Shown: positions 13,609 to 40,729 of the stretch, piece by piece | Layout of the letters: every line of letters starts with the position of its first letter | Numbering within the stretch: position 1 is the first letter of the stretch | Source: Campylobacteraceae bacterium | GTDB lineage: Bacteria; Campylobacterota; Campylobacteria; Campylobacterales; Campylobacteraceae | Direction of reading: 5' to 3' | Assembly: GCA_031255525.1 (NCBI GenBank) | Contig: JAIRSJ010000095.1 | Coordinates: 1-59,964 of the forward strand | Length of the DNA: 59,964 bases | Notes under the pieces: generated by a model | Database searches by the model: none | What the model saw: the letters and a program-made list of their open reading frames with translations, nothing else | What the model was told of the DNA's origin: nothing | Translations under genes and position numbers: made by a program

Positions 13609-14143
13609 GAAAATCTTTTATATTATTTCGATAAAAGTCTTGGATATTGGCTTTTTGACCTCATCATTTACTTCAAATAATCTTATATATTTTAAACGTA
13701 ATTTTAAAAGCAATAATAAAGCAAGTTTGCGTGATTTTTCAAAATCATTCGCTTTTCAAAAAATATTAATGTATTAAAAACTATTAAATTTATTACAAAA
13801 ATTTAAGTTAAAAATACTAAACTGAAAGAGAAGCCGCAAAATATTTAATGACGACAAATAATTAGTGTAACAAAAAATATTTTAGATCAATAAATTCTTT
13901 CAAAAACAATCTATTAAACGGTATTTAAATCAACTGAAATTTCTCTTATAGTTTCTCGAAAAATAGAGATCGTAATCGACACTCTGGTAATTTGGGTGTT
14001 TTCTTGCCGTTTTATTATTTTGCATACAATAGTTTGAGATAAAAATAACATTAAATTTTAGATTTTTTGAAAAATATTCTTACGGCTTTAAATACATTTG
14101 TAATAAATAATTTTTAATCATAAACTTAAAAAAATATCTTTTA

Positions 14144-14152
14144 TGATATAAT
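14144..14152 (+). promoter_or_regulatory. extended -10 promoter element for the T2SS operon
   Basis: TGATATAAT sits 29 nt upstream of the gspG TTG start, preceded by T-rich DNA as in Campylobacter sigma70 promoters. Confidence 0.4.
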
Positions 14153-14180
14153 TCACAGAAATAAAAATAGGAATTTAAAA

Positions 14181-14600
14181 TTGAGAAAAGCATTCACACT
14201 TATGGAGCTCATGGTAGTTATCATGATATTGGGACTTCTCACGGCCATTGTTGTACCGAATCTTGTCGGTCAAAGCGAAAGAGCGAGAAGAGATTTGGTT
14301 TGCATACAGATGAAAACGATTGGCGAATCACTCAATATGTTCAGGGCTGATTTCGGAAATTATCCACAATTAGAAGAGGGTATTGACGCTCTTATAAAAA
14401 ATCCTGATTCTTCAAAATACAAAAATTATCCCAATGGCGGATATCTCTCTGCCAAATCTACGCCGAAAGACTCCTGGGGAACAGAATATATATATGTGGT
14501 TGACAATGGAAATTTTGATATTATCTCTTTAGGCAGAGACAAGAAAGAGGGCGGAGACGGAGATGATGAGGATATATATTTTAGCAAATGTCAAGAGTAA
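14181..14600 (+). CDS. gspG: type II secretion major pseudopilin GspG
   Basis: TTG start. MRKAFTLMELMVVIMILGLL prepilin N-terminus; ...DSWGTEYIYV...ISLGRDKKEGGDGDDEDI, a GspG-type C-terminal region. Confidence 0.88.
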   Translation: MRKAFTLMELMVVIMILGLLTAIVVPNLVGQSERARRDLVCIQMKTIGESLNMFRADFGNYPQLEEGIDALIKNPDSSKYKNYPNGGYLSAKSTPKDSWGTEYIYVVDNGNFDIISLGRDKKEGGDGDDEDIYFSKCQE

Positions 14601-15121
14601 GAAGTGCGTTTACGCTTTTTGAATTATTGCTGGTTTTGTTACTAATAGTAATTTCGTACGGCTTATTTGCTCAAAATTTTTCCATGAGAACTCCCGAGGA
14701 AGAATCGGTAAAACTAGAGAAGTTAAATCTCTATCTTGCCAAAATCGGTGGAGACAAAAATCTTGTCTCTTTGAGATGTATTGACGATTGCGGCGAATGC
14801 AGACTTTTGATAAACGGCAAAGACACAAACATGACGCTTAGCATTTTTGAAAAAGACAACGCTGTAAATGCTTATTATTATGACGGCAAAAGATTAGAAA
14901 AAATAGTATTTGATGATTATTATATAGATGAATATAAAAGAGAAAAAGTTTGCTTTAGAATGGATATTTATCCGAACGGCAGCAATGATAAATTAGTTTT
15001 GGATTATAAAGGAAAAGTATATTTATTTGAAAATTACATGGAAAGCGGAAGAGTATTTGATACCGTAGCAAATACGCAGAATTTTTTAGAGAAATACCAA
15101 CTCGAGGCGAGAGGACGATAA
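14588..15121 (+). CDS. minor pseudopilin, GspH-like by size and position
   Basis: MSRVRSAFTLFELLLVLLLIV prepilin-type N-terminus. 177 aa. Overlaps gspG by 13 nt. Confidence 0.6.
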   Translation: MSRVRSAFTLFELLLVLLLIVISYGLFAQNFSMRTPEEESVKLEKLNLYLAKIGGDKNLVSLRCIDDCGECRLLINGKDTNMTLSIFEKDNAVNAYYYDGKRLEKIVFDDYYIDEYKREKVCFRMDIYPNGSNDKLVLDYKGKVYLFENYMESGRVFDTVANTQNFLEKYQLEARGR

Positions 15122-15124
15122 AAA

Positions 15125-16339
15125 TTGATATTTAAATATTCGGGAATAGACGGGTCCGGCGGCAAAGTAAATTCTAAAATAGAAGCTTCGGACTTAGACG
15201 ATGCGAAGCGGAGATTAAAAGCTCAAGGCATTATTTACAAAAAACTACAAGAGGATAGTTTTACGCTTTTGAGTAAATTTACTTTTAAAAGAAGATATAA
15301 AATTTCTTCAGGTGAACTCGCCGTATTTAGTCGCGATATAAGCATATATTTAAAATCCGGAATATCTTTAGTCGACGCCGTAACACTCTCTTCAAATCAA
15401 TACGCTAAAAACAAAAAAATGCTGCTTTTTTTAAAGAGTATAAAAACAGCTTTGGACGAGGGGAAAAATTTCTATTTCGCGCTTGAAAACCAAAACGTTA
15501 TAATTTTGCCGAATTTTTACAAACAATCCATAAAAGTATCGGAAGATAGCGGCATATTGACAGATATTCTACTGGAACTGTCGCGTTTTTTAAAAGAACA
15601 AGAGAGGTTGGAAAAGCAGGTGCAAAATGCATTTGCATACCCTGTTTTTATCTTGATAGTCTCTTGCTTTATGGTGGGTTTCATGGTAACTTATATAGTT
15701 CCTAAAATCAGCTCCATATTTGAACAGATGGATCAAGAGTTGCCAAAAATCACGCAAATAGTAATATCTACCGGAAATTGGATGTCAAACAATTGGTTCT
15801 ATCTTGCCGCAGGGTTGTTTTTGTTTGTTTTTGCTTTTAAATTTATCCTAAAAACAAGCTTAAAGGCAAAATATAGATTTGACATGCTTATGTTAAAACT
15901 GCCATTTTTTGGCAAAATAATACGATCATCCGAACTGGGACGTTTTACATATGTCGCTTCGATTTTGATTAGATCCGGTGTGCCTTTTGTCAAAACGGTA
16001 AGGCTTGGTGCGGGTATTTTGAAAAACAGTGTTATTGCTGATGTATTTGAAAAAGCTTCATTGAAAGTTGTAGAGGGTTCGCGTCTATCGGCAGCGCTTG
16101 TAAAAAGCGGTTTTGAATCCGACAACTCTTTTGTGCAAGCTATCACATTAGGGGAAGAGACGAGCGAGGTTGCTATGGTTTTACAAAACATGTCGGAACT
16201 ATATTTTGAAGAAAATAAAGACAAAATAGCACTTTTTCTATCTCTCTTGGAGCCTATGCTGATGTTGATTGTCGGCGGAATTATCGGATTTATAGTAACT
16301 TCGATGTTGCTTCCCATATTTTCCATAAACGTTTCGTGA
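15125..16339 (+). CDS. gspF: type II secretion inner-membrane platform protein GspF
   Basis: TTG start, 404 aa, three TM segments. C-terminal LLEPMLMLIVGGIIGFIV block typical of the GspF/PilC family. Confidence 0.88.
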   Translation: MIFKYSGIDGSGGKVNSKIEASDLDDAKRRLKAQGIIYKKLQEDSFTLLSKFTFKRRYKISSGELAVFSRDISIYLKSGISLVDAVTLSSNQYAKNKKMLLFLKSIKTALDEGKNFYFALENQNVIILPNFYKQSIKVSEDSGILTDILLELSRFLKEQERLEKQVQNAFAYPVFILIVSCFMVGFMVTYIVPKISSIFEQMDQELPKITQIVISTGNWMSNNWFYLAAGLFLFVFAFKFILKTSLKAKYRFDMLMLKLPFFGKIIRSSELGRFTYVASILIRSGVPFVKTVRLGAGILKNSVIADVFEKASLKVVEGSRLSAALVKSGFESDNSFVQAITLGEETSEVAMVLQNMSELYFEENKDKIALFLSLLEPMLMLIVGGIIGFIVTSMLLPIFSINVS

Positions 16340-16346
16340 GCCTTGC

Positions 16347-17240
16347 ATGTGCGGATTAGATAGAAAAGGTATCGTACTGCTTACCACAGTAGGACTTATT
16401 TTGATGCTCTCACTGCTTATCCTAAAAAGCATAGACGTTTCGCAAAAATATTTTGAAAGAGCAAACGATAGAAGTTTGTTTGTGCAACTCAACAGAAGCT
16501 TTCTCGATATTTTGGCGATTTTGCAAAAGAATTCACAAAACGTAAAAGATGCGCAAAGTCTCTCCACCATAGTCGGGCTTCCCATAATACTTAATACTGA
16601 TAGCGGCGATATAAACGTTATGATAGAGATAGCTTCTGCCGGCAGTGTTATAAATATTAACAATCTTATTTTAAGCAATAATGATATAAATGAACCTTTG
16701 TATAATTTTTTGCAAAATATTTTATATGAATACAGAGTTACAAATTCAAATTTTTTTTTATCCGTGCTGCTTGATGCTATAGATAAAGATAAAAATGAGA
16801 GAACATACGCAAGTGAAGCGGCTTTGCAAAGTTACAAATTTAGCGATGGAGGCATAAATTCAAAAGAGTCGTTTAGCTACCTTTTGGACTATTTCGTAGC
16901 AAATGGAGGAGATGCTAAGATATATAATGTTCCATGGGAAGAAATTGTAGGTTTTTTTGGTAAAGATATAGATTTTAATTATATAAAAGAACCTTTGTTT
17001 ACTTTAATAAAAAAAGAGTATAATTTGCATTCACTAACGCAAGATGAAATTATAAGTTCTTATGATGAGTTAGCAATTTCCGCAAGTGATAAAAATAAAC
17101 TTAGAGCTTTAAATATCGGATTTTTTTCGCCCAGAATATTTTGCAGTATGAGTTTTTTTTATTCAGGACAGACAAAGTTACTTAATTTTTTGTATGACAT
17201 GGAGACGAAAAAGGTGGATTATATTGAAACGATTTTTTGA
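16347..17240 (+). CDS. GspK-like minor pseudopilin
   Basis: 297 aa. N-terminal RKGIVLLTTVGLILMLSLLIL hydrophobic segment without the conserved Glu5, as in GspK. Size and operon context fit. Confidence 0.5.
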   Translation: MCGLDRKGIVLLTTVGLILMLSLLILKSIDVSQKYFERANDRSLFVQLNRSFLDILAILQKNSQNVKDAQSLSTIVGLPIILNTDSGDINVMIEIASAGSVININNLILSNNDINEPLYNFLQNILYEYRVTNSNFFLSVLLDAIDKDKNERTYASEAALQSYKFSDGGINSKESFSYLLDYFVANGGDAKIYNVPWEEIVGFFGKDIDFNYIKEPLFTLIKKEYNLHSLTQDEIISSYDELAISASDKNKLRALNIGFFSPRIFCSMSFFYSGQTKLLNFLYDMETKKVDYIETIF

Positions 17241-18237
17241 TATTTTGCGCTACAAAACGGCGCCTTTAATAGATGCTTTTAAACAAAGATACTATGATAA
17301 ATTCGGTAAAACACACAGTTATAAAGTGGTATTTGCAGATACAAAACATATAGAATCGGATGATTTGGGCATGTTTGATATTGTTCTATCTCCGAAATAT
17401 TATTGGACAAAGATAGAAAATCTTCCCGTAAAATATACATTTCAAGCAAAAGAGTATGCCCCTTCCGTATTTGACGGTTTTATCCCAAAAGGTGACTATT
17501 CCTATAAAGCCATAAAGCAAAACGGCAAATTTTTACTTTTTGCGTATGATGCCAAAAATATATTGGAAAATTTAGAAGCTCTTGGTATTAAGCTTACTCA
17601 TGTGCGCAATATATATTTTGCACAGACAGAATTTATAGACTATCCCTCCGCCATTAAGATAGATAATGAAAGTGTTTTAATAACACATAGCGAAAAAGTC
17701 GTAAAAGTGCCGCTTTCGTTGGCAAAAGAGTATGTAGGTATAAATAAAGTTTTACAAACTCTGAAACTTTCAAAAAATATCATTAAGCTCGGAAAATTTA
17801 ACCGTTTTTATGAAAAACAAGGAGCGCTCAGGGGCATCATATATGTCTTAGTGTTTTTGATAGTAGTTTTTTTCGCAGAGCTATTGTATCTTTCGCATAT
17901 ATTAAGTTCTCAAGAAGCCCAAAAAGATAAAATCTTGAAGCAGTACTCTCTACCATCTACAGAGATTCAATTAAATGCGCTTTTAAATCAGCAGGATAGA
18001 ATAAACAAGCAACAAAAGGCTATCAGAGAAAACGTGAGTAAAATCTTTAAACTTCCATTATTGGAAGGCGAGTATATTAAAAGCATAGAGGCAAATCAGA
18101 TGCAAATCTCTCTCGTACTGCACGTAAATGATAAAAACAGGTCAAATATCGTTAGAAACTACTTCCAAAGATCTTTTATCATGGATGAATTCAGAGACGA
18201 TACCAATGATATCGGGATAAAGTTACGCTATGAATAA
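17194..18237 (+). CDS. GspL-like bitopic assembly-platform protein
   Basis: 347 aa with one central TM segment (GIIYVLVFLIVVFFAELLYL) separating about 225 aa from about 100 aa. An alternative TTG start lies at 17224. Assigned by topology and position only. Confidence 0.45.
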   Translation: MTWRRKRWIILKRFFDILRYKTAPLIDAFKQRYYDKFGKTHSYKVVFADTKHIESDDLGMFDIVLSPKYYWTKIENLPVKYTFQAKEYAPSVFDGFIPKGDYSYKAIKQNGKFLLFAYDAKNILENLEALGIKLTHVRNIYFAQTEFIDYPSAIKIDNESVLITHSEKVVKVPLSLAKEYVGINKVLQTLKLSKNIIKLGKFNRFYEKQGALRGIIYVLVFLIVVFFAELLYLSHILSSQEAQKDKILKQYSLPSTEIQLNALLNQQDRINKQQKAIRENVSKIFKLPLLEGEYIKSIEANQMQISLVLHVNDKNRSNIVRNYFQRSFIMDEFRDDTNDIGIKLRYE

Positions 18238-18613
18238 AATAAATCCTTTAATTTTAACATCGGTGTTGGTTCTGGTTTTGCTGATCATGGCATATAACAT
18301 TTCGCACTCAAAAGATGAGATCAAAGAGAACAATACGGCTATTTTGGCACTTGATAACAATGCCAAAAAGATAATGTATTCGAAAAAAGTTTGGGACAAA
18401 ACAAATCTTGAAGGAAAACTAAAAGCGGTTTTTGGAGCAGACACATTAAGTGATAAAGGAAAAGTTTTCGAGATAAAATTGTCACTTTTAACGCACGAAC
18501 AAGTAGACGATATAGCCAAAAAAGCATTTAACGAAGCTTTTGAGATAGAAAAATTTGAGATTGCGATAGATTCTAACGGCAGATCTTCCGTTGTTTTGGA
18601 GATAACAAAATGA
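18230..18613 (+). CDS. GspM-like bitopic protein
   Basis: 127 aa, with an N-terminal TM segment (LILTSVLVLVLLIMAY) and a roughly 100-aa periplasmic domain. Overlaps both neighbours (8 nt and 4 nt). Confidence 0.4.
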   Translation: MNKINPLILTSVLVLVLLIMAYNISHSKDEIKENNTAILALDNNAKKIMYSKKVWDKTNLEGKLKAVFGADTLSDKGKVFEIKLSLLTHEQVDDIAKKAFNEAFEIEKFEIAIDSNGRSSVVLEITK

Positions 18614-19146
18614 GAGTTTTGAAGTACTTAAAGTATATACTGATGATTGTGCTGTTTTTTTATATTGTCATACTATTTTTGCCCAAAGAGAACTTTTATT
18701 TTTTTTTAGAACATAAACTTTTCAAAGACAATATTGTGCTCAGCAATGAGAGCCTGAAGGATGTTGGCGGTATTTTGCAAATAAACGATGTGTTTGTGAC
18801 GAGTGCAGGCGATGAAATCGCGCAGATAGACGAGATAACAATCCTGCCGTTTATTTTGTATAACGAAGTCGACGTTAAAAACTTGCATCTTGCCAAGAGA
18901 TTTGAAGGTGCGCTTCCGAGTAAAATTGATGAGGCAAGTTTCAAGGCAACTCTCTTTTATCCAATAAAAATTTGGATAAAACTAAAAGGTGATTTTGGCG
19001 ACATAGACGGCAGTTATAACGTATATAGCAAAACAGTCCGTTTGGTTTTGAAACCGCAAGAAAATTTTAAGCAAAAGTATCCGCTTATCTATGCAAAATT
19101 TCAAAATATAGATGGGGAGTTGGTATATGAATCGTCTCTTAAATAA
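18610..19146 (+). CDS. GspN-position bitopic protein (function unassigned)
   Basis: 178 aa, N-terminal TM segment (ILMIVLFFYIVILFL). Coupled to its neighbours. I recognise no motif. Confidence 0.35.
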   Translation: MRVLKYLKYILMIVLFFYIVILFLPKENFYFFLEHKLFKDNIVLSNESLKDVGGILQINDVFVTSAGDEIAQIDEITILPFILYNEVDVKNLHLAKRFEGALPSKIDEASFKATLFYPIKIWIKLKGDFGDIDGSYNVYSKTVRLVLKPQENFKQKYPLIYAKFQNIDGELVYESSLK

Positions 19147-19945
19147 TAAAACATTAAAGTTTGTCTTTAAAATTTTAATTTGTGTAGCCGTAGCAAAAAG
19201 TATAGCTTTGATCTTTTTTATTTTCCTTCCAAAAAGCGGAGTCGATGTCGGTTATAGCGACAACAATGTTATAAATTTCAACGCTTATAATCCAAGCCGT
19301 ACAAATCAATCCGTTGTCTCAAATACTCAAACCCGACAAGTAAATAATTTAAAGCTTTTGGCAATATATAAAGAAAGTGATGGCAAAAGCGCTTTTGTCG
19401 TTATCAATGACGGCGTCTCTTCGGAAGTATTAAAAATAGGCGATACATATAAACAATACCGTATAGATGAAATAATGCCTGATGGCGTTTTTCTTTTGGA
19501 AGACGGCAGAAAGGTATGGATTGGTTTTGCAAAAAGCACATTAAACTCTTTTGCCGCATCTACACAGCCAAACAATAGACCTGCCAATACAGGTATCAGA
19601 CAGCAGCTTCAACAGCCAAATGAAGAGTATACGAGTATCATAAAAAGAAGCGAAGTAGATGAGCTTATGACAAATCCCGATGCACTATTTAAAAATATAG
19701 GTTTTAAAGAAGTCGTGAAGAATGGGAAATTGGACGGTTTTAGAATCACCAGCATTAACAGAAACTCTCCCTTGGCAAAACTTGGCCTTCGCTCGGGAGA
19801 TGTTATACAGAGCTTTAATGGAATCAGACTTGATAACTATTCAGATGTTGTCGGGATTTATGATAATGCCAAATCTTACAGTAAAGTAAAATTGGAGATT
19901 ATGAGAAATAATGAAATAAAGGAGTTTGAATATGAGATTTATTAA
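19127..19945 (+). CDS. gspC: type II secretion protein GspC (TM + PDZ domain)
   Basis: GGGGAG RBS plus ATG at 19127. N-terminal TM segment and a C-terminal PDZ-like block GFRITSINRNSPLAKLGLRSGDVIQSFNGIRLDN. Confidence 0.6.
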   Translation: MNRLLNNKTLKFVFKILICVAVAKSIALIFFIFLPKSGVDVGYSDNNVINFNAYNPSRTNQSVVSNTQTRQVNNLKLLAIYKESDGKSAFVVINDGVSSEVLKIGDTYKQYRIDEIMPDGVFLLEDGRKVWIGFAKSTLNSFAASTQPNNRPANTGIRQQLQQPNEEYTSIIKRSEVDELMTNPDALFKNIGFKEVVKNGKLDGFRITSINRNSPLAKLGLRSGDVIQSFNGIRLDNYSDVVGIYDNAKSYSKVKLEIMRNNEIKEFEYEIY

Positions 19946-22091
19946 AATAGTCGCGTGCGTAATTTTGGCTGCGAATTTAAACGCCCAAAATGTCAACGGC
20001 ACTGCTTCGCCGAATAATTCAACTATTGAGATAAACTTTAGAGATTTGGAAATTACAGATTTTATAAGGCTTGTATCAAATGTCTTGAACAAAAATATAC
20101 TACTTCAAGATGCCGTTGGCGGTAAAGTGGAGTTTGTTTCCACAAAGCCCGTAAACAAGCAGGATCTGCCAAACATACTCCAGTCCGTTCTTGCCACAAA
20201 AGGCTATACCATGATAGACCACGGCACATACATGGAGGTGGTAAGAAGCAATGTAGTTTCGCAATACAATTTACCGTTGGTAGATAAATCGGCCTCGGGT
20301 TATACTCAAATGGTCACGCAAACTATAAGTATTAAAGGGCTAAATGCCGACGAAGTTGTAAATAAAATAAGATATCTCGCCTCTATAGCTGCAAAAATTG
20401 CAACTGTTAGAGAAAATAACATGATTGTTATAACGGATTTTCCCAAAAATATAGAAACCATAAGAAAAGTTATAACTCTTATGGAAAAAAATGTTGCTTC
20501 GGAAGTGGCATTTATCAAAATGTACAATGCCAACATAGAGCAGATTTTTCCTGTATTGCAATCAATTTCAAGAAGTGTTTTTAATGAAAGAATTGAAAGC
20601 GAAAAAGTGGCATTGTATGAAAATAAAGCCGATAACGGAGTTATTGCTGTGGGTTCGTCGGCAAATGTAAAAAAGCTAAAAGAGATTGTAGCCAATTTGG
20701 ATAAAGGACAAGAATCGTTCCAGATGGTAACAAGAGTCATACAGTTAAATAATACCGAAGCCAAAGATATTCATAAAATAATAAGCGAACTTGTCTCTTC
20801 AAACGCATTAACAGCGGCATCTTCTTCAAATGGCTTGCCTTCGGCAAATCAAACAATACAAAATTTAAAAGCGACAGATGTGGGCAAACCGGTATTTTCT
20901 ATAGATGAAGCCAGTAACTCTATTGTTGTTTTTGCCACACAAAAAGATTATGAAATCATAAAAAACATAATATCCGAACTTGATAAAGAGCAAAAACAGG
21001 TTTTCGTTAAAGCGAAAATTGTTGAGATTAGTGAAGCTGCTTCACAAAAAATAGGCGTAAAATACGGACTTGAAGGCGGAAGAGCTACATCGGACGGACT
21101 TTACACATTTGCCATGAACATGGGAGGAAGCGCGCTTGCTTTATCGCCTATATTAAGTTCTGTCATAAGCATAGGAGATATCAAATCCGGTCTGGCGTTC
21201 GGCGCTTCTATAGATTTTTTAAAGTCAAACGGCGCGGCAAATATTATCTCCGAACCGTCCGTTTTATGTTTAAACAATATGGAGTCAAAAATATATGTAG
21301 GTCAGACGCAATCCATCATAACAAGCGCTACTAACCCGGATAGTACTACCGATTTAAGCAGAAGTACATATACGAGAGAAGATATAGGTTTGACTTTGCA
21401 AGTAAAACCAAGAATAGCAAACGACGGAAAAGTCACTTTGCAGATAGAAGCTACGGTAGAAGATGTTTTGGACGGCAGCGGCGGCGACAGCGGTATGCCT
21501 ACTACAACAAAAAGGGAAGTTTCCACAAGAGCCATAGTAAAACACGGGGAGAGCGTCATAGTGGGAGGACTCATCCGCAATAAAGTTACCGAAAACGACA
21601 TAAAAGTTCCGCTTTTGGGAAATATACCGCTTTTGGGGCGTCTTTTCACACACAAAACAGATGTTGATGATCAGCTAAATATCGTTATTGTTTTAACTCC
21701 GTATATAATAAACTCGAGTGACGAATTATCACAATTAAGAGTGCAGTTATCCGAGCTTGACCAGCTTCAAGATGCTTATACCAAACAGTTAAAAGAAGAG
21801 CTTCTGAAAAAGATGGGTAACGTCTCGGAACCTGAAAACTTGAACGATGTCGTAGAATCTAAAAACACGAACTATACCATAGAACCAAAAAATACAAATG
21901 ATGTTTTAGAGCCTACTATGGAAGCAGATAATGTTTCGGCACCTGAGATAATAAACGATATTTCAGAACCTGTCAAAGAACCGGACAACATTTTGGAACC
22001 CAAAAAGAGAAAAGGCACAGTCAGCAATAGTGTGCAATTTGGCAGCAGTGAATACTGGAACAATATAATACTCAAAGGAGATGGTTCCTGA
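19932..22091 (+). CDS. gspD: type II secretion outer-membrane secretin GspD
   Basis: Signal peptide MRFIKIVACVILAANLNA, N0-like IEINFRDLEITDFIRLVSNVL, and secretin core VPLLGNIPLLGRLF...IVIVLTPYI. GGAG RBS before the ATG at 19932 (the track uses TTG 19926). Confidence 0.9.
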   Translation: MRFIKIVACVILAANLNAQNVNGTASPNNSTIEINFRDLEITDFIRLVSNVLNKNILLQDAVGGKVEFVSTKPVNKQDLPNILQSVLATKGYTMIDHGTYMEVVRSNVVSQYNLPLVDKSASGYTQMVTQTISIKGLNADEVVNKIRYLASIAAKIATVRENNMIVITDFPKNIETIRKVITLMEKNVASEVAFIKMYNANIEQIFPVLQSISRSVFNERIESEKVALYENKADNGVIAVGSSANVKKLKEIVANLDKGQESFQMVTRVIQLNNTEAKDIHKIISELVSSNALTAASSSNGLPSANQTIQNLKATDVGKPVFSIDEASNSIVVFATQKDYEIIKNIISELDKEQKQVFVKAKIVEISEAASQKIGVKYGLEGGRATSDGLYTFAMNMGGSALALSPILSSVISIGDIKSGLAFGASIDFLKSNGAANIISEPSVLCLNNMESKIYVGQTQSIITSATNPDSTTDLSRSTYTREDIGLTLQVKPRIANDGKVTLQIEATVEDVLDGSGGDSGMPTTTKREVSTRAIVKHGESVIVGGLIRNKVTENDIKVPLLGNIPLLGRLFTHKTDVDDQLNIVIVLTPYIINSSDELSQLRVQLSELDQLQDAYTKQLKEELLKKMGNVSEPENLNDVVESKNTNYTIEPKNTNDVLEPTMEADNVSAPEIINDISEPVKEPDNILEPKKRKGTVSNSVQFGSSEYWNNIILKGDGS

Positions 22092-23614
22092 TGGACGATA
22101 TAGAACATATTCACGACACAAATTTAGAGCCTTTTGAAATAGAGTCCGAAGAGCTCAATATAGCCCTCAAAAACTATGTGCTTTTTTCAAAAATAGGAGA
22201 TGTTTTATGTGCGTGCATTACGGAAAATTATATAGATGTGGCTTTTGAATATCTCTCCAAACAAGGCTTGAAATATAAAGTTATATTTTTAGACGAAGAG
22301 TCTTACGATAGGCTTTTAAATAAATTTTTAGAACTTAGAACCGACAAAGAGCTTGGCTCTATAGATAGAAATGCCGAAGAAGAAGCCAATATCGATGAAA
22401 ATATGAATTTAACGGAGTTTCTAAGAAATTCCGGTGATATTTTGACGTCCGAAGAGTCTGCACCGATTATCAAATTTGTAAACTCGCTTTTTTATCAGGC
22501 TATCAAAAAACGCTCAAGCGATATTCATATAGAGATGCATGAATTTAAAGGCGAAATACGCTTTCGTATAGACGGCGTATTGACAAAACATATAGAGCTT
22601 GAAAAAAATATCTTGAATCTTGTCATAAGCCGTATAAAAGTCATATCAAATCTTGATATCTCCGAAAAACGTATTCCTCAAGACGGCAGAACACAGATAA
22701 AGATAGCAGGACGCACATTGGATATCCGCGTCTCTATATTGCCTGTATATTACGGTGAAAGAGTTGTTATGCGTATTTTGATGGATTCCACGCAAATTCC
22801 TTCGCTGTTTGAGCTTGGTTTCACCGACGATTTGATAAACGGACTAAATAGTATTTTGCAATATTCGCATGGCATAATTTTAGTAACCGGACCAACCGGC
22901 AGCGGTAAATCAACCACTTTGCATTCGTTTTTGCAAAGATTGGCATCTCCGGAAAAAAATATTATCACGATAGAAGACCCCGTAGAATATAAGACAAACA
23001 ATATAAATCAGATTCAAGTAAATAGCAAAGTGGGGCTTACATTTGCAACAGGACTTCGCTCCATACTAAGACAAGATCCCGATATAGTCATGGTAGGCGA
23101 AATACGCGACAATGAGACTGCATCTATAGCTACACAAGCGGCTCTTACAGGGCATTTGGTTTTATCTACGCTGCATACAAACAACGCTACAGCCGCCATA
23201 ACAAGACTTGTGGACATGAAAATAGAGCCGTTTTTAATATCTTCTACACTACTTGCCGTGCTGGCTCAAAGACTTGTGCGGTTACTATGTCCTTATTGCA
23301 AAACAGAGGATAAGATAGCAGAAGATTATGCAAATCAATTTTCGCTCAAAAAAAATGCTATTATCTACAAAGCCAACGGTTGTAAAAAATGCAACTACAC
23401 AGGATATATAGGAAGGCAAGCCGTAGGGGAGCTGCTCGTGATGAATGATGATGTCAAAACGATACTCAAAACTACGACAAACGACTATCAGATCCGCTCC
23501 TTTACCAAAGAAAACGGTATGGTATTTCTCTCGCATAGATTGAAACAGCTGTTGCACGAAGGAAAGATATCGCTTGATGAGGCGATAAGAATCGGAATAA
23601 AAGACGATGACTAA
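22091..23614 (+). CDS. gspE: type II secretion ATPase GspE
   Basis: Walker A GPTGSGKST, RQDPDIVMVGEIRD, His box LVLSTLHTN, and the tetracysteine site CPYC...CKKC. The ATG overlaps the gspD TGA. Confidence 0.93.
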   Translation: MDDIEHIHDTNLEPFEIESEELNIALKNYVLFSKIGDVLCACITENYIDVAFEYLSKQGLKYKVIFLDEESYDRLLNKFLELRTDKELGSIDRNAEEEANIDENMNLTEFLRNSGDILTSEESAPIIKFVNSLFYQAIKKRSSDIHIEMHEFKGEIRFRIDGVLTKHIELEKNILNLVISRIKVISNLDISEKRIPQDGRTQIKIAGRTLDIRVSILPVYYGERVVMRILMDSTQIPSLFELGFTDDLINGLNSILQYSHGIILVTGPTGSGKSTTLHSFLQRLASPEKNIITIEDPVEYKTNNINQIQVNSKVGLTFATGLRSILRQDPDIVMVGEIRDNETASIATQAALTGHLVLSTLHTNNATAAITRLVDMKIEPFLISSTLLAVLAQRLVRLLCPYCKTEDKIAEDYANQFSLKKNAIIYKANGCKKCNYTGYIGRQAVGELLVMNDDVKTILKTTTNDYQIRSFTKENGMVFLSHRLKQLLHEGKISLDEAIRIGIKDDD

Positions 23615-24035
23615 GGCTTTTACGCTCGTAGAAGTTTTGATAGCTGTCGCTATTGTGTTCACAGCAGGTCTTGGACTTTTAAAAGTAAGCTCGAATAGTT
23701 CAAAACTCATAGGTTATGCAAAAGTCAAAAACGAAGCAAATTCTCTTTTTTCTTTTGTAATTTTAAACGGTATTTGCATTGATGGTATTGATAAAAATAT
23801 GTACGATGTAGTCAAAACCAAATTTACGATAAAAGACGATAAACTTGTATCGGTTTTAAAAGAACAAAACCTCACATGTGAGAGCGAAGAGATTTTTAAT
23901 ATGGATTTAGCGGACAGCAAAGATATAGAAGAGACTTTAGATAATATACCCAAAATGGAGTTTATTATAAATAAAATCAGCGCAAACATAAAAGGTATTA
24001 ATACGCTGGGGTATGAGATAAAGGCCAACATGTGA
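23607..24035 (+). CDS. minor pseudopilin, GspI-like
   Basis: MTKAFTLVEVLIAVAIVF prepilin N-terminus. 142 aa. Overlaps the gspE 3' end by 8 nt. Confidence 0.55.
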   Translation: MTKAFTLVEVLIAVAIVFTAGLGLLKVSSNSSKLIGYAKVKNEANSLFSFVILNGICIDGIDKNMYDVVKTKFTIKDDKLVSVLKEQNLTCESEEIFNMDLADSKDIEETLDNIPKMEFIINKISANIKGINTLGYEIKANM

Positions 24036-24568
24036 AAAGGGCTTTCACGCTCATTGAAGTAGTCATATCGATAGCTATATTTTCTATTATGGCTGTGTAT
24101 TTATATCAAGCCATAAATACTATGCAAAAAAGCAATGATATCAACTCTTTACATTATGAAGAAGAGATAAAAGAGCAAAAAATAGTGAAGCTTTTTTATA
24201 ACGATCTGTTTTTGCAAACAAATGTGTATGCCGTCTCAAACATAACAAGCGATGATGATTTTGACATTTTTCGGCTGCATACCAGAAACTCTATACATGC
24301 AATGATAAATCCGTATGTAGCGTATTTTGTCAAGGATAACTCTTTGTACAGAATAGAATCAAGAGAAGTTGAAAATATTCCTTTGACTTATGAAGGCGCA
24401 GAACGCGTTAAGGTAGATAAGCTTATGGAAAATATAACTCTTTTCCGCATATATGCGAACAAAAACTCTTATCTTATCAGCTATCAAAGCGAAGAAAAAT
24501 TTACCATATTTCAGATATCTTTACCTCAAGTCTCCGCTGATTCCAATAACACACCAAATAATAATTAA
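24032..24568 (+). CDS. minor pseudopilin, GspJ-like
   Basis: GTG start overlapping the preceding TGA. MKRAFTLIEVVISIAIFSIMAVYLYQ. 178 aa. Confidence 0.55.
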   Translation: MKRAFTLIEVVISIAIFSIMAVYLYQAINTMQKSNDINSLHYEEEIKEQKIVKLFYNDLFLQTNVYAVSNITSDDDFDIFRLHTRNSIHAMINPYVAYFVKDNSLYRIESREVENIPLTYEGAERVKVDKLMENITLFRIYANKNSYLISYQSEEKFTIFQISLPQVSADSNNTPNNN

Positions 24569-29501: not shown

Positions 29502-29993
29502 TCAAATTAGTTCAAGTTCCCTGTTTTTCATCACTCCAATACCCCTTTTTAACACTTGTTTGGCTATCTTTTTGGCTTGTTTCAAAGAGTGCAATTTGTA
29601 TGTACCGCACTGATATATATTAAGTTCGGGAATGTCTTTTTTGCGCTTTACTTTTAAAATGTCTTTCATCGCAGCTTCCCATGCTACCGCCACATCTTTC
29701 TCTTTAGGACTTCCTATAAGGCTCATATAAAATCCCGTCCTGCAACCCATAGGAGAAATATCTATTATCTCTACTTTATCGCCATTTAAATGCTGTCTTA
29801 AAAATCCGGCAAAAAGATGCTCTAACGTATGAATACCTTTAGGACTCAATATCTCCTTGTTCGGTCTGCAAAAACGCAAATCAAAAACAGTGATCTTGTC
29901 TCCTCCGTTTGGAGTTTTCATAGTTTTTGCTACTCTAACTGCAGGCGCCGTCATTTTTGTATGATCAACTTTAAAACTGTCAAGAAGCGGCAT
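29502..29993 (-). CDS. luxS: S-ribosylhomocysteine lyase
   Basis: AAGGAGG RBS plus ATG at 29993 ([14 protein letters not shown]). The metal-site motif HTLEHL is present, with the second site Cys in the YQCGTY context. Confidence 0.95.
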
Positions 29994-30110
29994 ATTATCC
30001 TCCTTGTTTTTCACAATTTTTTTTATAAAAATTTGAAAGAATTATATCAAAAAAGTAATGTTTATATTACTTTTCGATATACTAAAATCAGAACAAGACA
30101 AGGAGTTTAC

Positions 30111-30926
30111 ATGGAGCAGATTGTAGCAGCTTTAGCCATGCACGAAAGTGATTTGTATGTAATAGAAAAAAGTGAGGAGTTGCGCAAAAGAACAGGCGCG
30201 AAAGTGACCTATGTACACGCTGTAGTCTCAAGGTTTTTAGGTAAAAGTACAGATATAGTCAAAATCAAAGAAGAACTTCAAAACTTTGTCAAAAAAACAG
30301 CCGATATCAATGATGACGATATCGTGGTAAGTATATCAAGCGGCTGGGAGCTTATCTTAAAAACAGTAAAAGAAAAAGATGCCGATCTTGTTGTGCTTGG
30401 AAATATGAGCAAATCGCACGCTGTTTTATATCTGGGTTCAACAGTTAAAAAAGTACTTGAAAGAATAGGAGCTCCTGTATTTATAGCAAGAAGCAAGCCT
30501 CTTGATAATAAAATACTCATTCCGACAGACCTTGGCGACTATACTATGAAAGCTTCGGTTGTCAAAAAATTTTTAAAATCAAACGCACCTGTCTCTTATG
30601 TTTACGCGGACGCGTCTGCTTTCGGCGAAATAGCGACACCATACACTACGCTTGCCGCGTATTCCGTAGAATATATGCAAGAAGAGATGGAAAAGCAGCT
30701 CAAAGAGTTCAAAAAAAACAGAACTGACGCGCCTATCGCGATATTGGAAGTGGAAGAGAGCGTTTCTGAGGCTATTAAAAAATATGCGCAAGAAAACGAC
30801 TATACACTAATGGTTTTGGCTTCAAGAAATATAGCGGGGTTAAATCCCATAATTTTCGGCAGTACAGCTTCAAAAATAGCGCAAATAGTAGACGCGAATC
30901 TCCTGATAACCTTTGTGGAGGAGTAA
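30111..30926 (+). CDS. tandem-domain universal stress protein (UspA family)
   Basis: AAGGAG RBS plus ATG at 30111. Contains two USP-like halves, ending GSTVKKVLERIGAPVFI and GSTASKIAQIVDANLLI. The upstream part of the track ORF overlaps luxS antisense. Confidence 0.75.
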   Translation: MEQIVAALAMHESDLYVIEKSEELRKRTGAKVTYVHAVVSRFLGKSTDIVKIKEELQNFVKKTADINDDDIVVSISSGWELILKTVKEKDADLVVLGNMSKSHAVLYLGSTVKKVLERIGAPVFIARSKPLDNKILIPTDLGDYTMKASVVKKFLKSNAPVSYVYADASAFGEIATPYTTLAAYSVEYMQEEMEKQLKEFKKNRTDAPIAILEVEESVSEAIKKYAQENDYTLMVLASRNIAGLNPIIFGSTASKIAQIVDANLLITFVEE

Positions 30927-31991: not shown

Positions 31992-32486
31992 TCAAAAAAC
32001 CGATTTTATACTCTCCACCCATTTTTCAACTCTCTCTTCAGTCAAATCGCTTTGGTTGTCTTCATCAATGATAAGACCGATAAATTTCCCATCTACCACT
32101 GCCTTTGATTCCTCAAAGCTATATCCTTCGGTAGAATTTTTATCGCCGACTATTTTAGCGCCTTTTTTCAAGCTTAGCTCATACAAAGTTCCTACACCAT
32201 CACAAAATTCCCCGCCATAACTCTCTTGATCGCCAAGTCCGAAAAATGCTACGGTTTTACCTTCAAGTTCAAGCGTGTCTTTATTGAACAAATCCCAATC
32301 GTCCTGCAATTCGCCCTCATACCAAGTTGACGTACCCAAAATCAATTTATCGTAACCGTTTATCTCATTTGCATCAGCTTTGCCGATATCTATCAAATCA
32401 GCCTCTTTGCCGAGTTTTTTTTGAATAAGTTTAGCAACACTTTCGGTATTGCCGCCGCTGCTTCCGTAAACAATAGCTATTGACAT
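31992..32486 (-). CDS. fldA: flavodoxin FldA (long-chain)
   Basis: MSIAIVYGSSGGNTE..., TSTWYEGELQDDW, GLGDQESYGGEFCD. The ATG at 32486 is 6 nt from an AGGAG RBS. Confidence 0.9.
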   Translation of the reverse strand: MSIAIVYGSSGGNTESVAKLIQKKLGKEADLIDIGKADANEINGYDKLILGTSTWYEGELQDDWDLFNKDTLELEGKTVAFFGLGDQESYGGEFCDGVGTLYELSLKKGAKIVGDKNSTEGYSFEESKAVVDGKFIGLIIDEDNQSDLTEERVEKWVESIKSVF

Positions 32487-32501
32487 TTTCATCTCCTAAA
32501 A

Positions 32502-40651: not shown

Positions 40652-40729
40652 AAATACTATCCTTATAATCAATATAAAAGTAGGTGATTTTACCCACTAT
40701 TTTCTTAATTATTTAAAAAAATGAGAGGT

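What the first reader, a model, noticed from the sequence alone, without database searches (positions are those of the whole stretch)
14181..24568. Complete, permuted 12-gene type II secretion-like operon in a Campylobacter-type genome
Seen: twelve same-strand ORFs separated by at most 8 nt or overlapping, with start/stop overlaps at 22089-22093, 23607-23614 and 24032-24035. They are preceded by 572 bp of AT-rich non-coding DNA with TGATATAAT at 14144-14152. Several genes use TTG or GTG starts, including the lead gene gspG. The products are five proteins with prepilin-type N-termini, a GspF platform, a GspE ATPase (GPTGSGKST, CPYC...CKKC), a 721-aa secretin (VPLLGNIPLLGRLF), a PDZ-bearing GspC-like protein and three bitopic proteins. 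Established knowledge: the canonical proteobacterial order is C-D-E-F-G-H-I-J-K-L-M-N. C. jejuni, as I recall, has only the reduced Cts DNA-uptake set (ctsD/E/F/P/X/R plus ctsG/ctsT) with no GspC/L/M equivalents. Inference: this is a full envelope-spanning T2SS, or an elaborate competence pseudopilus. Its order is G-H-F-K-L-M-N-C-D-E-I-J, which separates K from its I-J tip partners. Its cargo and role are unknown, and no obvious exoprotein gene flanks it.
Basis: partly seen in the sequence, partly recalled or inferred. Interest (0 to 1): 0.8.

Follow-up and report, generated by a model that had tools for sequence, protein, structure and literature searches.

The report
Complete Campylobacterota type II secretion operon
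A twelve-gene operon in an uncultured relative of Campylobacter encodes a complete but very divergent type II protein-secretion machine; many environmental relatives share it, but nobody has tested it experimentally, and its cargo is unknown.

Summary
Twelve tightly packed same-strand genes lie at 14181-24568, behind a 572-bp, 21% GC leader that starts at the end of a tmRNA gene.

Curated models or fold comparison identify eight products:
- GspG and GspD score above NCBIfam equivalog cut-offs.
- GspE and GspF best match the type II secretion (T2SS) models.
- GspC has an HR region plus a PDZ domain.
- GspK and GspL were recognised only from AlphaFold models matched to solved XcpX/GspK and EpsL/GspL structures.
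- GspJ was supported by a profile comparison with E. coli GspJ.

The H and I labels rest on the prepilin N-terminus, size and position. The M and N labels rest on position and topology only.

All twelve genes are under purifying selection. The same order recurs in Arcobacter-type genomes. The K-L-M-N-C-D-E core recurs in Sulfurimonas, Sulfurospirillum and Nitratiruptor relatives, so the "permutation" is a phylum-level layout.

It differs in gene set and protein sizes from the C. jejuni Cts DNA-uptake set, but I could not build a Cts phylogeny. No prepilin peptidase or cargo gene lies in the window.

Verdict: a new, unstudied member of a known kind. It is of moderate interest because a 2016 survey reported no T2SS in 98 Epsilonproteobacteria genomes.

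The parts
14144..14152 (+). Extended -10-like promoter element TGATATAAT, 29 nt upstream of the gspG start codon. AGGA ribosome-binding site at 14170-14173.
   Evidence: Read directly. The sigma-70 pattern scan gives nothing decisive in this AT-rich DNA. Function is inferred, not shown.
14181..14600 (+). gspG, major pseudopilin (139 aa, TTG start). N-terminus MRKA|FTLMEL; C-terminal GRDKKEGGDGDDEDI loop.
   Evidence: TIGR01710 GspG equivalog 132.3 bits (cut-off 88.85). Pfam T2SSG E=1e-27. The top 8 PDB sequence hits are all T2SS GspG.
14588..15121 (+). gspH-like minor pseudopilin (177 aa), N-terminus SAFTLFELL.
   Evidence: Only the prepilin N-terminus is recognised. Weak blastp match to E. 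coli GspH over 125 aa, E=0.008. Two invariant Cys among orthologues. The label is by size and position.
15125..16339 (+). gspF, inner-membrane platform (404 aa, TTG start, three membrane segments).
   Evidence: Pfam T2SSF x2, E=5e-44. Best NCBIfam model is GspF TIGR02120 at 273.8 bits (below the 424 cut-off), ahead of PilC at 203.
16347..17240 (+). gspK, tip minor pseudopilin (297 aa). Hydrophobic N-terminus without Glu5; conserved D143-x-x-D146-x-D148.
   Evidence: No Pfam or NCBIfam hit. AlphaFold model pLDDT 78.8, pTM 0.72. The only significant Foldseek hits are XcpX/GspK (9a1f_T, 5vtm_X, 3ci0_K), E 3e-6 to 4e-5, TM about 0.6. hhalign against E. coli GspK gives E=1.4e-4 over 152 columns.
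17224..18237 (+). gspL, bitopic assembly-platform protein (337 aa, revised TTG start). Cytoplasmic actin-like domain, membrane segment 205-223, small periplasmic alpha/beta domain.
   Evidence: No HMM hit in 32 orthologues. AlphaFold model pLDDT 75.6. Top three Foldseek hits are cyto-EpsL 1yf5 and GspL 4pht, E 2e-5 to 5e-5, followed by PilM and FtsA. Weak C-terminal hits to PulL/PulM C-terminal domains. Start revised.
18230..18613 (+). gspM-like bitopic protein (127 aa; membrane segment 7-25, then about 100 periplasmic residues).
   Evidence: Position after gspL, size and topology only. No Pfam, PDB or hhalign match. A 125-135 aa ORF occupies this slot in Arcobacter, Sulfurospirillum and L082 loci. 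dN/dS about 0.2.
18610..19146 (+). gspN-like bitopic protein (178 aa; membrane segment 6-24; conserved G-x-F-G-x-x-x-G).
   Evidence: Position and topology. Orthologues found in 56 loci. 3 of 33 orthologues weakly hit TIGR04411 T2SS_GspN_Lepto, best E=0.019. No Pfam hit. The label is tentative.
19112..19945 (+). gspC (277 aa, or 272 aa from ATG 19127): N-terminal membrane anchor, HR region, C-terminal PDZ domain.
   Evidence: NCBIfam GspC_delta NF041515 at 104.9 bits, E=7e-30 (below the 150 cut-off); TIGR01713 GspC E=5e-17. Pfam PDZ_2 E=3e-10; T2SSC E=1.5e-4 at residues 65-134.
19926..22091 (+). gspD, outer-membrane secretin (721 aa): signal peptide, N0, Secretin_N repeats, secretin core, then an acidic low-complexity C-terminal tail of about 90 residues.
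   Evidence: TIGR02517 GspD equivalog 373.3 bits (cut-off 351.35), against PilQ 187 and MshL 130. Pfam N0 + Secretin_N + Secretin. The top 9 PDB hits are T2SS GspD, several full length.
22091..23614 (+). gspE, assembly ATPase (507 aa): Walker A GPTGSGKST; tetracysteine CPYC...CKKC.
   Evidence: TIGR02533 GspE 556.4 bits (best model, below the 630 cut-off), against PilB 460.8. PDB: Vibrio GspE/EpsE 402-407 bits, against PilF/PilB 332-357. 43% identical to E. coli GspE.
23607..24035 (+). gspI-like minor pseudopilin (142 aa), N-terminus KAFTLVEVL.
   Evidence: Only the N-terminal helix matches GspI: TIGR01707 E=6e-4; hhalign 37 columns. The label is by size and by adjacency to gspJ.
24032..24568 (+). 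gspJ minor pseudopilin (178 aa, GTG start), N-terminus RAFTLIEVV.
   Evidence: hhalign of a 26-sequence profile against E. coli GspJ: probability 93%, E=2.5e-7, 136 columns. blastp E=1e-6 over 161 aa. TIGR01711 GspJ E=9e-7, N-terminus only.

Best explanation
This is a complete, functional type II secretion system, encoded as one operon in the core chromosome of an uncultured Campylobacterota bacterium.

Proposed mechanism (inferred from the canonical T2SS unless marked otherwise):
1. The operon is transcribed from an extended -10 promoter in the AT-rich leader. The genes are translationally coupled; the overlapping junctions are shown.
2. A prepilin peptidase encoded elsewhere cleaves G, H, I and J after the Ala that precedes Phe+1.
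3. The GspE hexamer docks on the cytoplasmic actin-like domain of GspL and on GspF.
4. GspE uses ATP to polymerise a short GspG pseudopilus capped by K-I-J(-H).
5. GspC links this inner-membrane platform, through its HR region, to the N0 domain of the GspD secretin.
6. The growing pseudopilus pushes folded periplasmic proteins out through the secretin.

What is shown here: gene content, family or fold membership of G, F, K, L, C, D, E and J, conservation, and purifying selection. Activity and cargo are not shown. The unusual gene order is the ancestral layout for this phylum, not a local rearrangement.
For: Family membership:
- GspG and GspD exceed NCBIfam equivalog cut-offs.
- GspE, GspF and GspC each score best against the T2SS model rather than the T4P, MSH or Com models.
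- PDB sequence searches rank solved T2SS GspE, GspD and GspG first.
- Predicted folds of ORF4 and ORF5 match solved GspK and GspL structures as the top three hits each.
- The ORF4 profile aligns to E. coli GspK, including the D-x-x-D-x-D segment. The ORF12 profile aligns to GspJ at 93% probability.
- GspC with a PDZ domain, a GspK-type tip pseudopilin and an N0-bearing secretin together are T2SS hallmarks (established knowledge).

Genes are real and conserved:
- All 12 genes have dN/dS of 0.03-0.23.
- The same 12-gene order occurs in the closest MAGs, in Arcobacter, Halarcobacter and Aliarcobacter loci, and in L082. The K-L-M-N-C-D-E core occurs in Sulfurimonadaceae, Nitratiruptor and Sulfurospirillum-like loci.
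- The GspL-like family has 519 representative clusters at 50% identity with E<=1e-3.

Secretion rather than DNA uptake:
- In two other lineages, genes for signal-peptide proteins and lipoproteins directly follow gspJ. This fits protein export.
- The published Cts proteins and their A. butzleri homologues differ in size and arrangement: secretin 472/478 aa, ATPase 519/453 aa, scattered genes.
Against: - No prepilin peptidase (GspO/PilD) in the window or in any fetched flank.
- No candidate cargo next to the operon in this genome.
- ORF6 and ORF7 match no GspM or GspN model or structure. H and I are recognised only by their N-termini.
- GspE, GspF and GspC fall below the curated equivalog cut-offs.
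- The two structure models are of moderate confidence. The GspL match covers only the cytoplasmic domain (TM 0.28-0.39).
- No pilotin or GspA/B was seen.
- C. jejuni shows that T2SS-like genes in this phylum can serve DNA uptake, and I could not place GspD/E/F in a tree with CtsD/E/F.
- There are no expression or secretion data.
Confidence: 0.77

Rival explanations
1. The operon is the DNA-uptake (competence) pseudopilus of this lineage. It would be the full-length counterpart of the C. jejuni Cts system: a pseudopilus that pulls DNA through the secretin rather than pushing proteins out.
For: C. jejuni natural transformation depends on T2SS/T4P-like genes ctsD/E/F/G. No cargo gene flanks the operon in the window. 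I could not show that this genome carries a separate Cts set.
Against: - CtsD is 472 aa and CtsE 519 aa. The A. butzleri homologues are 478 and 453 aa and are scattered in the genome. Here GspD is 721 aa with an N0 domain, and all genes sit in one operon.
- The locus has GspC-PDZ, GspL and GspK, which the Cts set lacks. It has no CtsP-like NTPase.
- The HMMs rank ComGA, ComGB, ComGC and HofQ far below the Gsp models.
- No comEA, comEC or dprA gene lies nearby.
- In relatives, exported-protein genes follow gspJ.
Confidence: 0.1
2. It builds a surface type IV-like pilus (MSH-like or T4aP-like) for adhesion or motility, rather than a periplasmic pseudopilus.
For: The order L-M-N-C-D-E is collinear with pilM/N-O-P-Q and mshI-J-K-L...E (my recollection of those operons). 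Denise et al. [quoted passage not shown]
Against: - The secretin scores 373 bits for GspD, against 130 for MshL and 187 for PilQ.
- The major subunit passes the GspG equivalog cut-off and resembles solved GspG, not PilA.
- None of the twelve products matches a PilT-type retraction ATPase, MshM (AAA) or MshN (TPR). mshM is mandatory in the MSH model.
- GspC-PDZ and GspK are T2SS features.
Confidence: 0.05
3. It is a cryptic or decaying remnant that is no longer used, like the silent gsp operon of E. coli K-12.
For: There are no expression data. There is no peptidase or cargo in view. E. coli K-12 shows that an intact T2SS operon can be transcriptionally silent under laboratory conditions; its genes are annotated 'cryptic'.
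Against: All twelve reading frames are intact with coupled junctions and dN/dS of 0.03-0.23. The operon is kept across many lineages. T2SS genes of Nitratiruptor and Sulfurovum are reported as differentially expressed.
Confidence: 0.06

Closest known systems
Canonical proteobacterial T2SS (Gsp/Pul/Eps/Xcp; for example E. coli K-12 gspC-O, Vibrio Eps, Pseudomonas Xcp)
   Same: The same parts list: a GspD secretin with N0 and N domains, GspE ATPase with Walker A and tetracysteine motifs, GspF, major pseudopilin GspG, four minor pseudopilins including a GspK-fold tip protein, GspC with HR region and PDZ domain, and a GspL with the EpsL-like cytoplasmic fold. All are in a single locus.
   Different: - The order is G-H-F-K-L-M-N-C-D-E-I-J, not C-D-E-F-G-H-I-J-K-L-M-O.
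- There is no gspO in the locus.
- K, L, M, N, H and I are too divergent for Pfam or NCBIfam to recognise.
- Identity to E. coli is low: 43% for E, 33% for G, 25% for D and F.
- The prepilins have Ala, not Gly, before Phe+1.
- The secretin carries an acidic low-complexity C-terminal tail.
Campylobacter jejuni Cts transformation system (ctsR-D-P-X-E-F plus ctsG, ctsT)
   Same: Same phylum. It is built from a secretin, a GspE-like ATPase, a GspF-like platform and pseudopilin-like proteins with KAFTL-type N-termini.
   Different: - Cts has a short 472-aa secretin, the CtsP NTPase and CtsX, no GspC/K/L equivalents, and scattered pilin genes. Its demonstrated role is DNA uptake.
- The present operon has a 721-aa GspD-type secretin and the full T2SS accessory set.
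- The phylogenetic relationship was not tested here.
T4aP alignment subcomplex pilMNOPQ and the MSH pilus operon mshIJKL-MN-E-G
   Same: The L-M-(N)-C-D-E order parallels pilM/N-O-P-Q and mshI-J-K-L...E. This uses the established structural equivalences GspL ~ PilM+PilN, GspM ~ PilO, GspC HR ~ PilP and GspD ~ PilQ (my knowledge). PilM is the fourth-best fold hit for ORF5. MSH loci also lack a prepilin peptidase.
   Different: There is no retraction ATPase and no MshM or MshN. The secretin, ATPase and major subunit all score higher on T2SS models.
Non-canonical T2SS lineages modelled by NCBIfam (GspC_delta of Deltaproteobacteria; GspN of Leptospira)
   Same: The best GspC model is the delta-type NF041515. 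The only repeated hit for the ORF7 family is the Leptospira-type GspN model TIGR04411.
   Different: The scores are below the cut-offs (104.9 against 150; E=0.019). Gene order in those lineages was not examined here.

Membership tests
Type II secretion system (T2SS) | GspD-type secretin with an N0 domain, N1-N3 repeats and a secretin core | tested here: met
   TIGR02517 373.3 bits, above the 351.35 cut-off. Pfam type_II_gspD_N0 + Secretin_N + Secretin. Full-length alignments to solved GspD.
Type II secretion system (T2SS) | GspE-type assembly ATPase | tested here: inconclusive
   The best model is GspE TIGR02533 at 556.4 bits, but this is below the equivalog cut-off of 630.25. It is ahead of PilB at 460.8. 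Solved GspE/EpsE rank above PilB/PilF. Walker A and tetracysteine motifs are present.
Type II secretion system (T2SS) | GspF platform protein | tested here: inconclusive
   The best model is GspF TIGR02120 at 273.8 bits, below the 424 cut-off; PilC models score about 203. Two Pfam T2SSF domains.
Type II secretion system (T2SS) | Major pseudopilin GspG | tested here: met
   TIGR01710 132.3 bits, above the 88.85 cut-off. Pfam T2SSG. The top PDB hits are all GspG.
Type II secretion system (T2SS) | Minor pseudopilin tip complex GspK-GspI-GspJ, plus GspH | tested here: inconclusive
   K: fold match to XcpX/GspK, TM about 0.6, and hhalign E=1.4e-4. J: hhalign probability 93%. H and I: only the prepilin N-terminus is recognised.
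Type II secretion system (T2SS) | GspC (membrane anchor, HR domain, PDZ or coiled coil) linking the platform to the secretin | tested here: met
   GspC_delta E=7e-30, TIGR01713 E=5e-17, Pfam T2SSC region at residues 65-134 and PDZ at 196-273. The scores are below the equivalog cut-offs.
Type II secretion system (T2SS) | GspL with a cytoplasmic actin-like domain that binds GspE | tested here: met
   No sequence-model hit. The predicted fold's three best PDB matches are cyto-EpsL and GspL in complex with GspE, E about 2e-5. Topology fits. Binding itself was not tested.
Type II secretion system (T2SS) | GspM (and the optional GspN) | tested here: inconclusive
   ORF6 and ORF7 have the right position, size and bitopic topology but no model, PDB or hhalign match. 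There is only a weak GspN_Lepto hint.
Type II secretion system (T2SS) | Prepilin peptidase GspO/PilD available | tested here: not met
   There is no homologue of E. coli GspO in the 60-kb window or in 80 related loci. It may be encoded elsewhere in the genome, as in many bacteria. This is not a defining failure for the system.
Type II secretion system (T2SS) | Secretes folded periplasmic proteins across the outer membrane | not testable with these tools
   This needs mutant secretome analysis.
C. jejuni Cts competence system | Presence of CtsP (NTPase) and CtsX, with a short PilQ-like secretin of about 470 aa | tested here: not met
   None of the twelve products has a second NTPase domain. The secretin is 721 aa with an N0 domain. 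No Cts sequences were available for direct comparison.
C. jejuni Cts competence system | GspD/E/F orthologous to CtsD/E/F in a phylogeny | not tested
MSH pilus | mshM (AAA protein), mandatory in the MacSyFinder MSH model, and mshN (TPR), with an MshL-type secretin | tested here: not met
   There is no AAA or TPR protein among the twelve. The MshL model scores 130 bits, against 373 for GspD.

The most novel reading that the evidence does not exclude
This is an anciently diverged, phylum-wide T2SS lineage. Its L-M-N-C-D-E order preserves the pilM/N-O-P-Q-like arrangement of the type IV pilus ancestor, making it a transitional layout between T4aP/MSH and the classical T2SS. The C. jejuni Cts DNA-uptake genes would be its reduced descendant, so the intact system might both secrete proteins and take up DNA.
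Probability: 0.12. Interest if true: 0.6.

Novelty: new member of a known kind. Interest (0 to 1): 0.36.

Why it matters
- The reference survey of secretion systems found no T2SS in 98 Epsilonproteobacteria genomes. Genome papers on environmental members report the system as partial, with "several subunits missing".
- This analysis shows the subunits are present but too divergent for current models. GspK and GspL are annotated "hypothetical protein". The GspL-like family alone has more than 500 representative clusters and no Pfam or NCBIfam model.
- Recognising the full set would improve annotation and detection models for Campylobacterota, including vent, sediment and host-associated species.
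- It also gives a defined target for asking what these bacteria secrete, and how the Cts DNA-uptake genes of C. jejuni relate to a complete T2SS.
- It does not reveal a new kind of machine.

Tried and rejected
- **Sequence models for ORF4-7.** Pfam and NCBIfam scans of the window proteins and of 11-33 orthologues each found nothing for L and M. They gave only 2/24 marginal T2SSK_1st hits for K and 3/33 marginal GspN_Lepto hits for N.
- **Profile searches of the L and K alignments against PDB sequences.** These gave only noise.
- **hhalign of M and L profiles against single E. coli GspM and GspL sequences.** M gave no signal and L gave E=0.07.
- **Structure prediction with locus-derived alignments.** Both prediction jobs went to L and K, leaving none for M and N.
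- **A Cts comparison.** The GspE homologue search listed only 120 hits of at least 62% identity, and the two primary Cts papers are not held. No tree could be built.
- **A genomic island at ssrA.** Rejected. There is no integrase, the operon's GC (0.355) equals the window's, the downstream genes are syntenic in L001 and L002, and ssrA adjacency is seen only in the window and L001.
- **A regulatory RNA in the 572-bp leader.** Nothing credible in Rfam; only short AT-rich repeats.
- **Cargo next to the operon.** The flanks are all housekeeping genes. The exported-protein cassette found in relatives has no homologue in the window.
- **A termite-gut origin for the closest MAGs.** I suspected this from memory, but the bin names were not in the held supplement of the paper checked. 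It remains unverified.

Full report
**Observation**

One search lists twelve + strand ORFs from 14181 to 24568. With refined start codons, the eleven junctions are two gaps of 3 and 7 nt and nine overlaps of 1 to 20 nt.

The upstream 572 bp (13609-14180) is 21% GC, against 35.5% for both the operon and the whole window. It contains TGATATAAT at 14144-14152 and an AGGA 7 nt before the TTG start of the first gene.

No known RNA family lies in the leader.

One coordinate needs correcting. ORF5 starts at TTG 17224 (337 aa), not ATG 17194. Two relatives at about 75% identity carry a stop codon in the extension, and the database copy of this protein is 337 aa.

dN/dS against three relatives is 0.03-0.23 for every one of the twelve genes. 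All are therefore real, constrained coding sequences (dS is near 1, so the values are approximate).

**What the genes are**

Five products are identified by curated models:
- GspG passes the equivalog cut-off (132.3 bits against 88.85).
- GspD passes its cut-off (373.3 against 351.35) and has N0, Secretin_N and Secretin domains.
- GspE scores 556 bits on the GspE model, against 461 on PilB.
- GspF scores 274 bits on GspF, against about 203 on PilC.
- The PDZ protein hits three GspC models (best E=7e-30) plus the Pfam T2SSC region.

GspE, GspF and GspC are below the strict equivalog cut-offs, but the T2SS model is the best hit in each case. Sequence searches of solved structures agree. Vibrio GspE/EpsE rank above PilF/PilB. 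Nine T2SS GspD chains rank above any PilQ. Eight GspG chains rank above any type IV pilin.

ORF4, 5, 6 and 7 have no Pfam or NCBIfam hit, either alone or across 11-33 orthologues. Their close homologues in public records, where a name is given, are almost all called "hypothetical protein".

AlphaFold models were built from database homologues.
- **ORF4** (pLDDT 78.8, pTM 0.72): the only significant Foldseek hits are XcpX/GspK in three T2SS pseudopilus structures, with TM about 0.6. A profile of 24 orthologues aligns to E. coli GspK over 152 columns (E=1.4e-4), including the conserved D-x-x-D-x-D segment.
- **ORF5** (pLDDT 75.6): the three best hits are the cytoplasmic domain of EpsL and of GspL bound to GspE (E about 2e-5), followed by PilM and FtsA. 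Its small C-terminal domain weakly resembles the PulL/PulM periplasmic domains.

ORF4 is therefore GspK and ORF5 is GspL.

ORF12 aligns to E. coli GspJ at 93% hhalign probability over 136 columns. ORF2 and ORF11 resemble GspH and GspI only in the prepilin helix. Their labels rest on size and position.

ORF6 (127 aa) and ORF7 (178 aa) each have one N-terminal membrane segment and a periplasmic body, as GspM and GspN do. Nothing matched ORF6. For ORF7 the only recurrent family is a marginal Leptospira-type GspN model (3 of 33 orthologues, best E=0.019). These two labels remain positional.

**Distribution**

A scan of one genome per species with GspE found 248 relatives, and the best 80 loci were kept. 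The closest (82-94% identity) are MAGs labelled Campylobacteraceae bacterium. At 59-71% identity come Arcobacter, Halarcobacter, Aliarcobacter, Sulfurimonas, Sulfuricurvum, Sulfurospirillum and Nitratiruptor. The GspE homologue search also found cultured carriers, Nitratiruptor sp. YY09-18 and a Sulfurimonas species.

Mapping the twelve proteins onto these loci gave three layouts:
- the identical G-H-F-K-L-M-N-C-D-E-I-J order in the closest clade and in the Arcobacter-type loci, confirmed ORF by ORF in Arcobacter sp. YIC-464 and in L082;
- an inverted F-H-G block upstream of K-L-M-N-C-D-E-I-J in Sulfurimonadaceae and Nitratiruptor;
- a divergent G with K-L-M-N-C-D-E-F in Sulfurospirillum-like loci.

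The K-L-M-N-C-D-E core is thus a phylum-level feature. The GspL-like family alone has 519 representative clusters at E<=1e-3, all about 300-370 aa.

In the window the operon sits among housekeeping genes: lysS, glyA, aroE, recR, ruvB, panB, trpA and ssrA upstream; an aldo-keto reductase, an aminotransferase, a hisZ-like gene and purA downstream. These names are my reading of the translations. The downstream genes are syntenic in the two closest MAGs. It is not an island.

**How it most likely works**

The parts list is that of a classical T2SS, so the canonical mechanism is the best inference. GspE is docked by GspL and GspF. It polymerises GspG under a K-I-J(-H) cap. GspC bridges to the N0 domain of the GspD secretin, and folded periplasmic proteins are expelled.

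Gene content, family or fold assignment, conservation and selection are shown. Activity, cargo and regulation are inferred. The prepilins carry Ala, not Gly, before Phe+1, and no prepilin peptidase lies in the window or in any flank. It must be encoded elsewhere.

No exoprotein gene flanks the operon here. In L082 and in six Sulfurimonadaceae loci, however, a set of Pfam-less genes for signal-peptide proteins and lipoproteins follows gspJ directly. Two of them are homologous between those lineages. This fits a protein-export role, but they have no homologue in the window.

**Rival readings**

*Competence pseudopilus.* This is the serious rival, because C. jejuni uses T2SS-like Cts genes for DNA uptake. 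Several points count against it:
- Cts proteins and their A. butzleri homologues differ in size and arrangement (secretin 472/478 aa, ATPase 519/453 aa, scattered genes).
- The locus has GspC, GspK and GspL and lacks a CtsP-like NTPase.
- Com and HofQ models score far lower.

*MSH-like or T4aP-like pilus.* This is unlikely. There is no PilT, MshM or MshN, and the MshL and PilQ models score well below GspD.

*Silent remnant.* This is unlikely given intact frames and purifying selection. Expression is untested.

**Comparison with what is known, and novelty**

The canonical order, checked in E. coli K-12, is C-D-E-F-G-H-I-J-K-L-M-O. The order here differs, but T2SS gene order varies among lineages and the parts are the same.

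One observation is worth recording. L-M-(N)-C-D is collinear with pilM/N-O-P-Q and mshI-J-K-L, under the accepted structural equivalences of those proteins (my knowledge, not tested here).

On the literature:
- Abby et al. 2016 state that T2SS were absent from 98 Epsilonproteobacteria genomes.
- Denise et al. 2019 mention only MSH for this class.
- Genome and transcriptome papers mention T2SS genes in Sulfurovum, Nitratiruptor, vent symbionts and an aquifer epsilonproteobacterium. One says subunits are missing.
- I found no functional study.

The finding is therefore a new, uncharacterised member of a known kind. Its practical value is that the "missing" subunits are identified. Interest is moderate.

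Noticed in passing
window:13233-13608 (+): A tmRNA (ssrA) gene with tag peptide ANNKNFAPAYAKVA lies directly upstream of the operon's AT-rich leader. The same adjacency is seen in L001 but not in 12 other related loci checked.
   Followed up: partly
L082:12780-18512; also L019, L023, L025, L029, L041, L074 downstream of gspJ: A cassette of Pfam-less genes for signal-peptide proteins and lipoproteins (152, 500, 232, 128, 416 and 408 aa in L082) follows gspJ on the same strand. The 232-aa and 416-aa proteins have homologues in the same position in Sulfurimonadaceae loci. They are candidate cargo or accessory proteins and are absent from the window.
   Followed up: partly
L012:17465-18856 and the equivalent positions in L001, L002, L003, L008: An ORF of about 463 aa that looks like an RHS/YD repeat protein (judged by eye) lies downstream of the operon in the closest clade. 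In L012 it sits between the operon and the aldo-keto reductase gene. There is no counterpart in the window.
   Followed up: no
window:21810-22088 (GspD residues about 630-721): The secretin ends in an acidic, Pro/Asn-rich low-complexity tail (...EPENLNDVVESKNTNYTIEPKNTNDVLEP...), beyond the secretin core and a helical segment. Orthologues in Arcobacter (647 aa) and L082 (645 aa) are shorter, so the tail is lineage-specific.
   Followed up: no
window:14588-15121 and orthologues (alignment A7): The GspH-like protein has two invariant cysteines (C64, C71 in CIDDCGEC) across 13 orthologues at 21-82% identity. This suggests a conserved disulfide or metal site not described for canonical GspH.
   Followed up: no
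L038, L043, L045, L052, L065, L077, L079 (Helicobacteraceae-labelled MAGs): In these loci the longest ORF covering the GspL-like gene is 564-618 aa rather than about 310-340 aa. This hints at a fusion with the upstream (GspK-position) gene or an extended N-terminus. G, H, F, I and J were not detected near the core there.
   Followed up: no
window:30966-31460 and 31992-32492 (-): Two paralogous flavodoxin-like genes (164 and 166 aa) lie about 500 bp apart. A pyruvate:ferredoxin/flavodoxin oxidoreductase-like ORF of 1191 aa is at 37097-40672. Both assignments are by eye from the translations.
   Followed up: no
window:29502-30014 (-) and 29829-30926 (+): A LuxS-like ORF (by eye) and the longest form of the next + strand ORF overlap by about 185 nt on opposite strands. 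The + strand ORF is probably over-extended at its 5' end; its translation reads like a real protein only from about residue 95.
   Followed up: no
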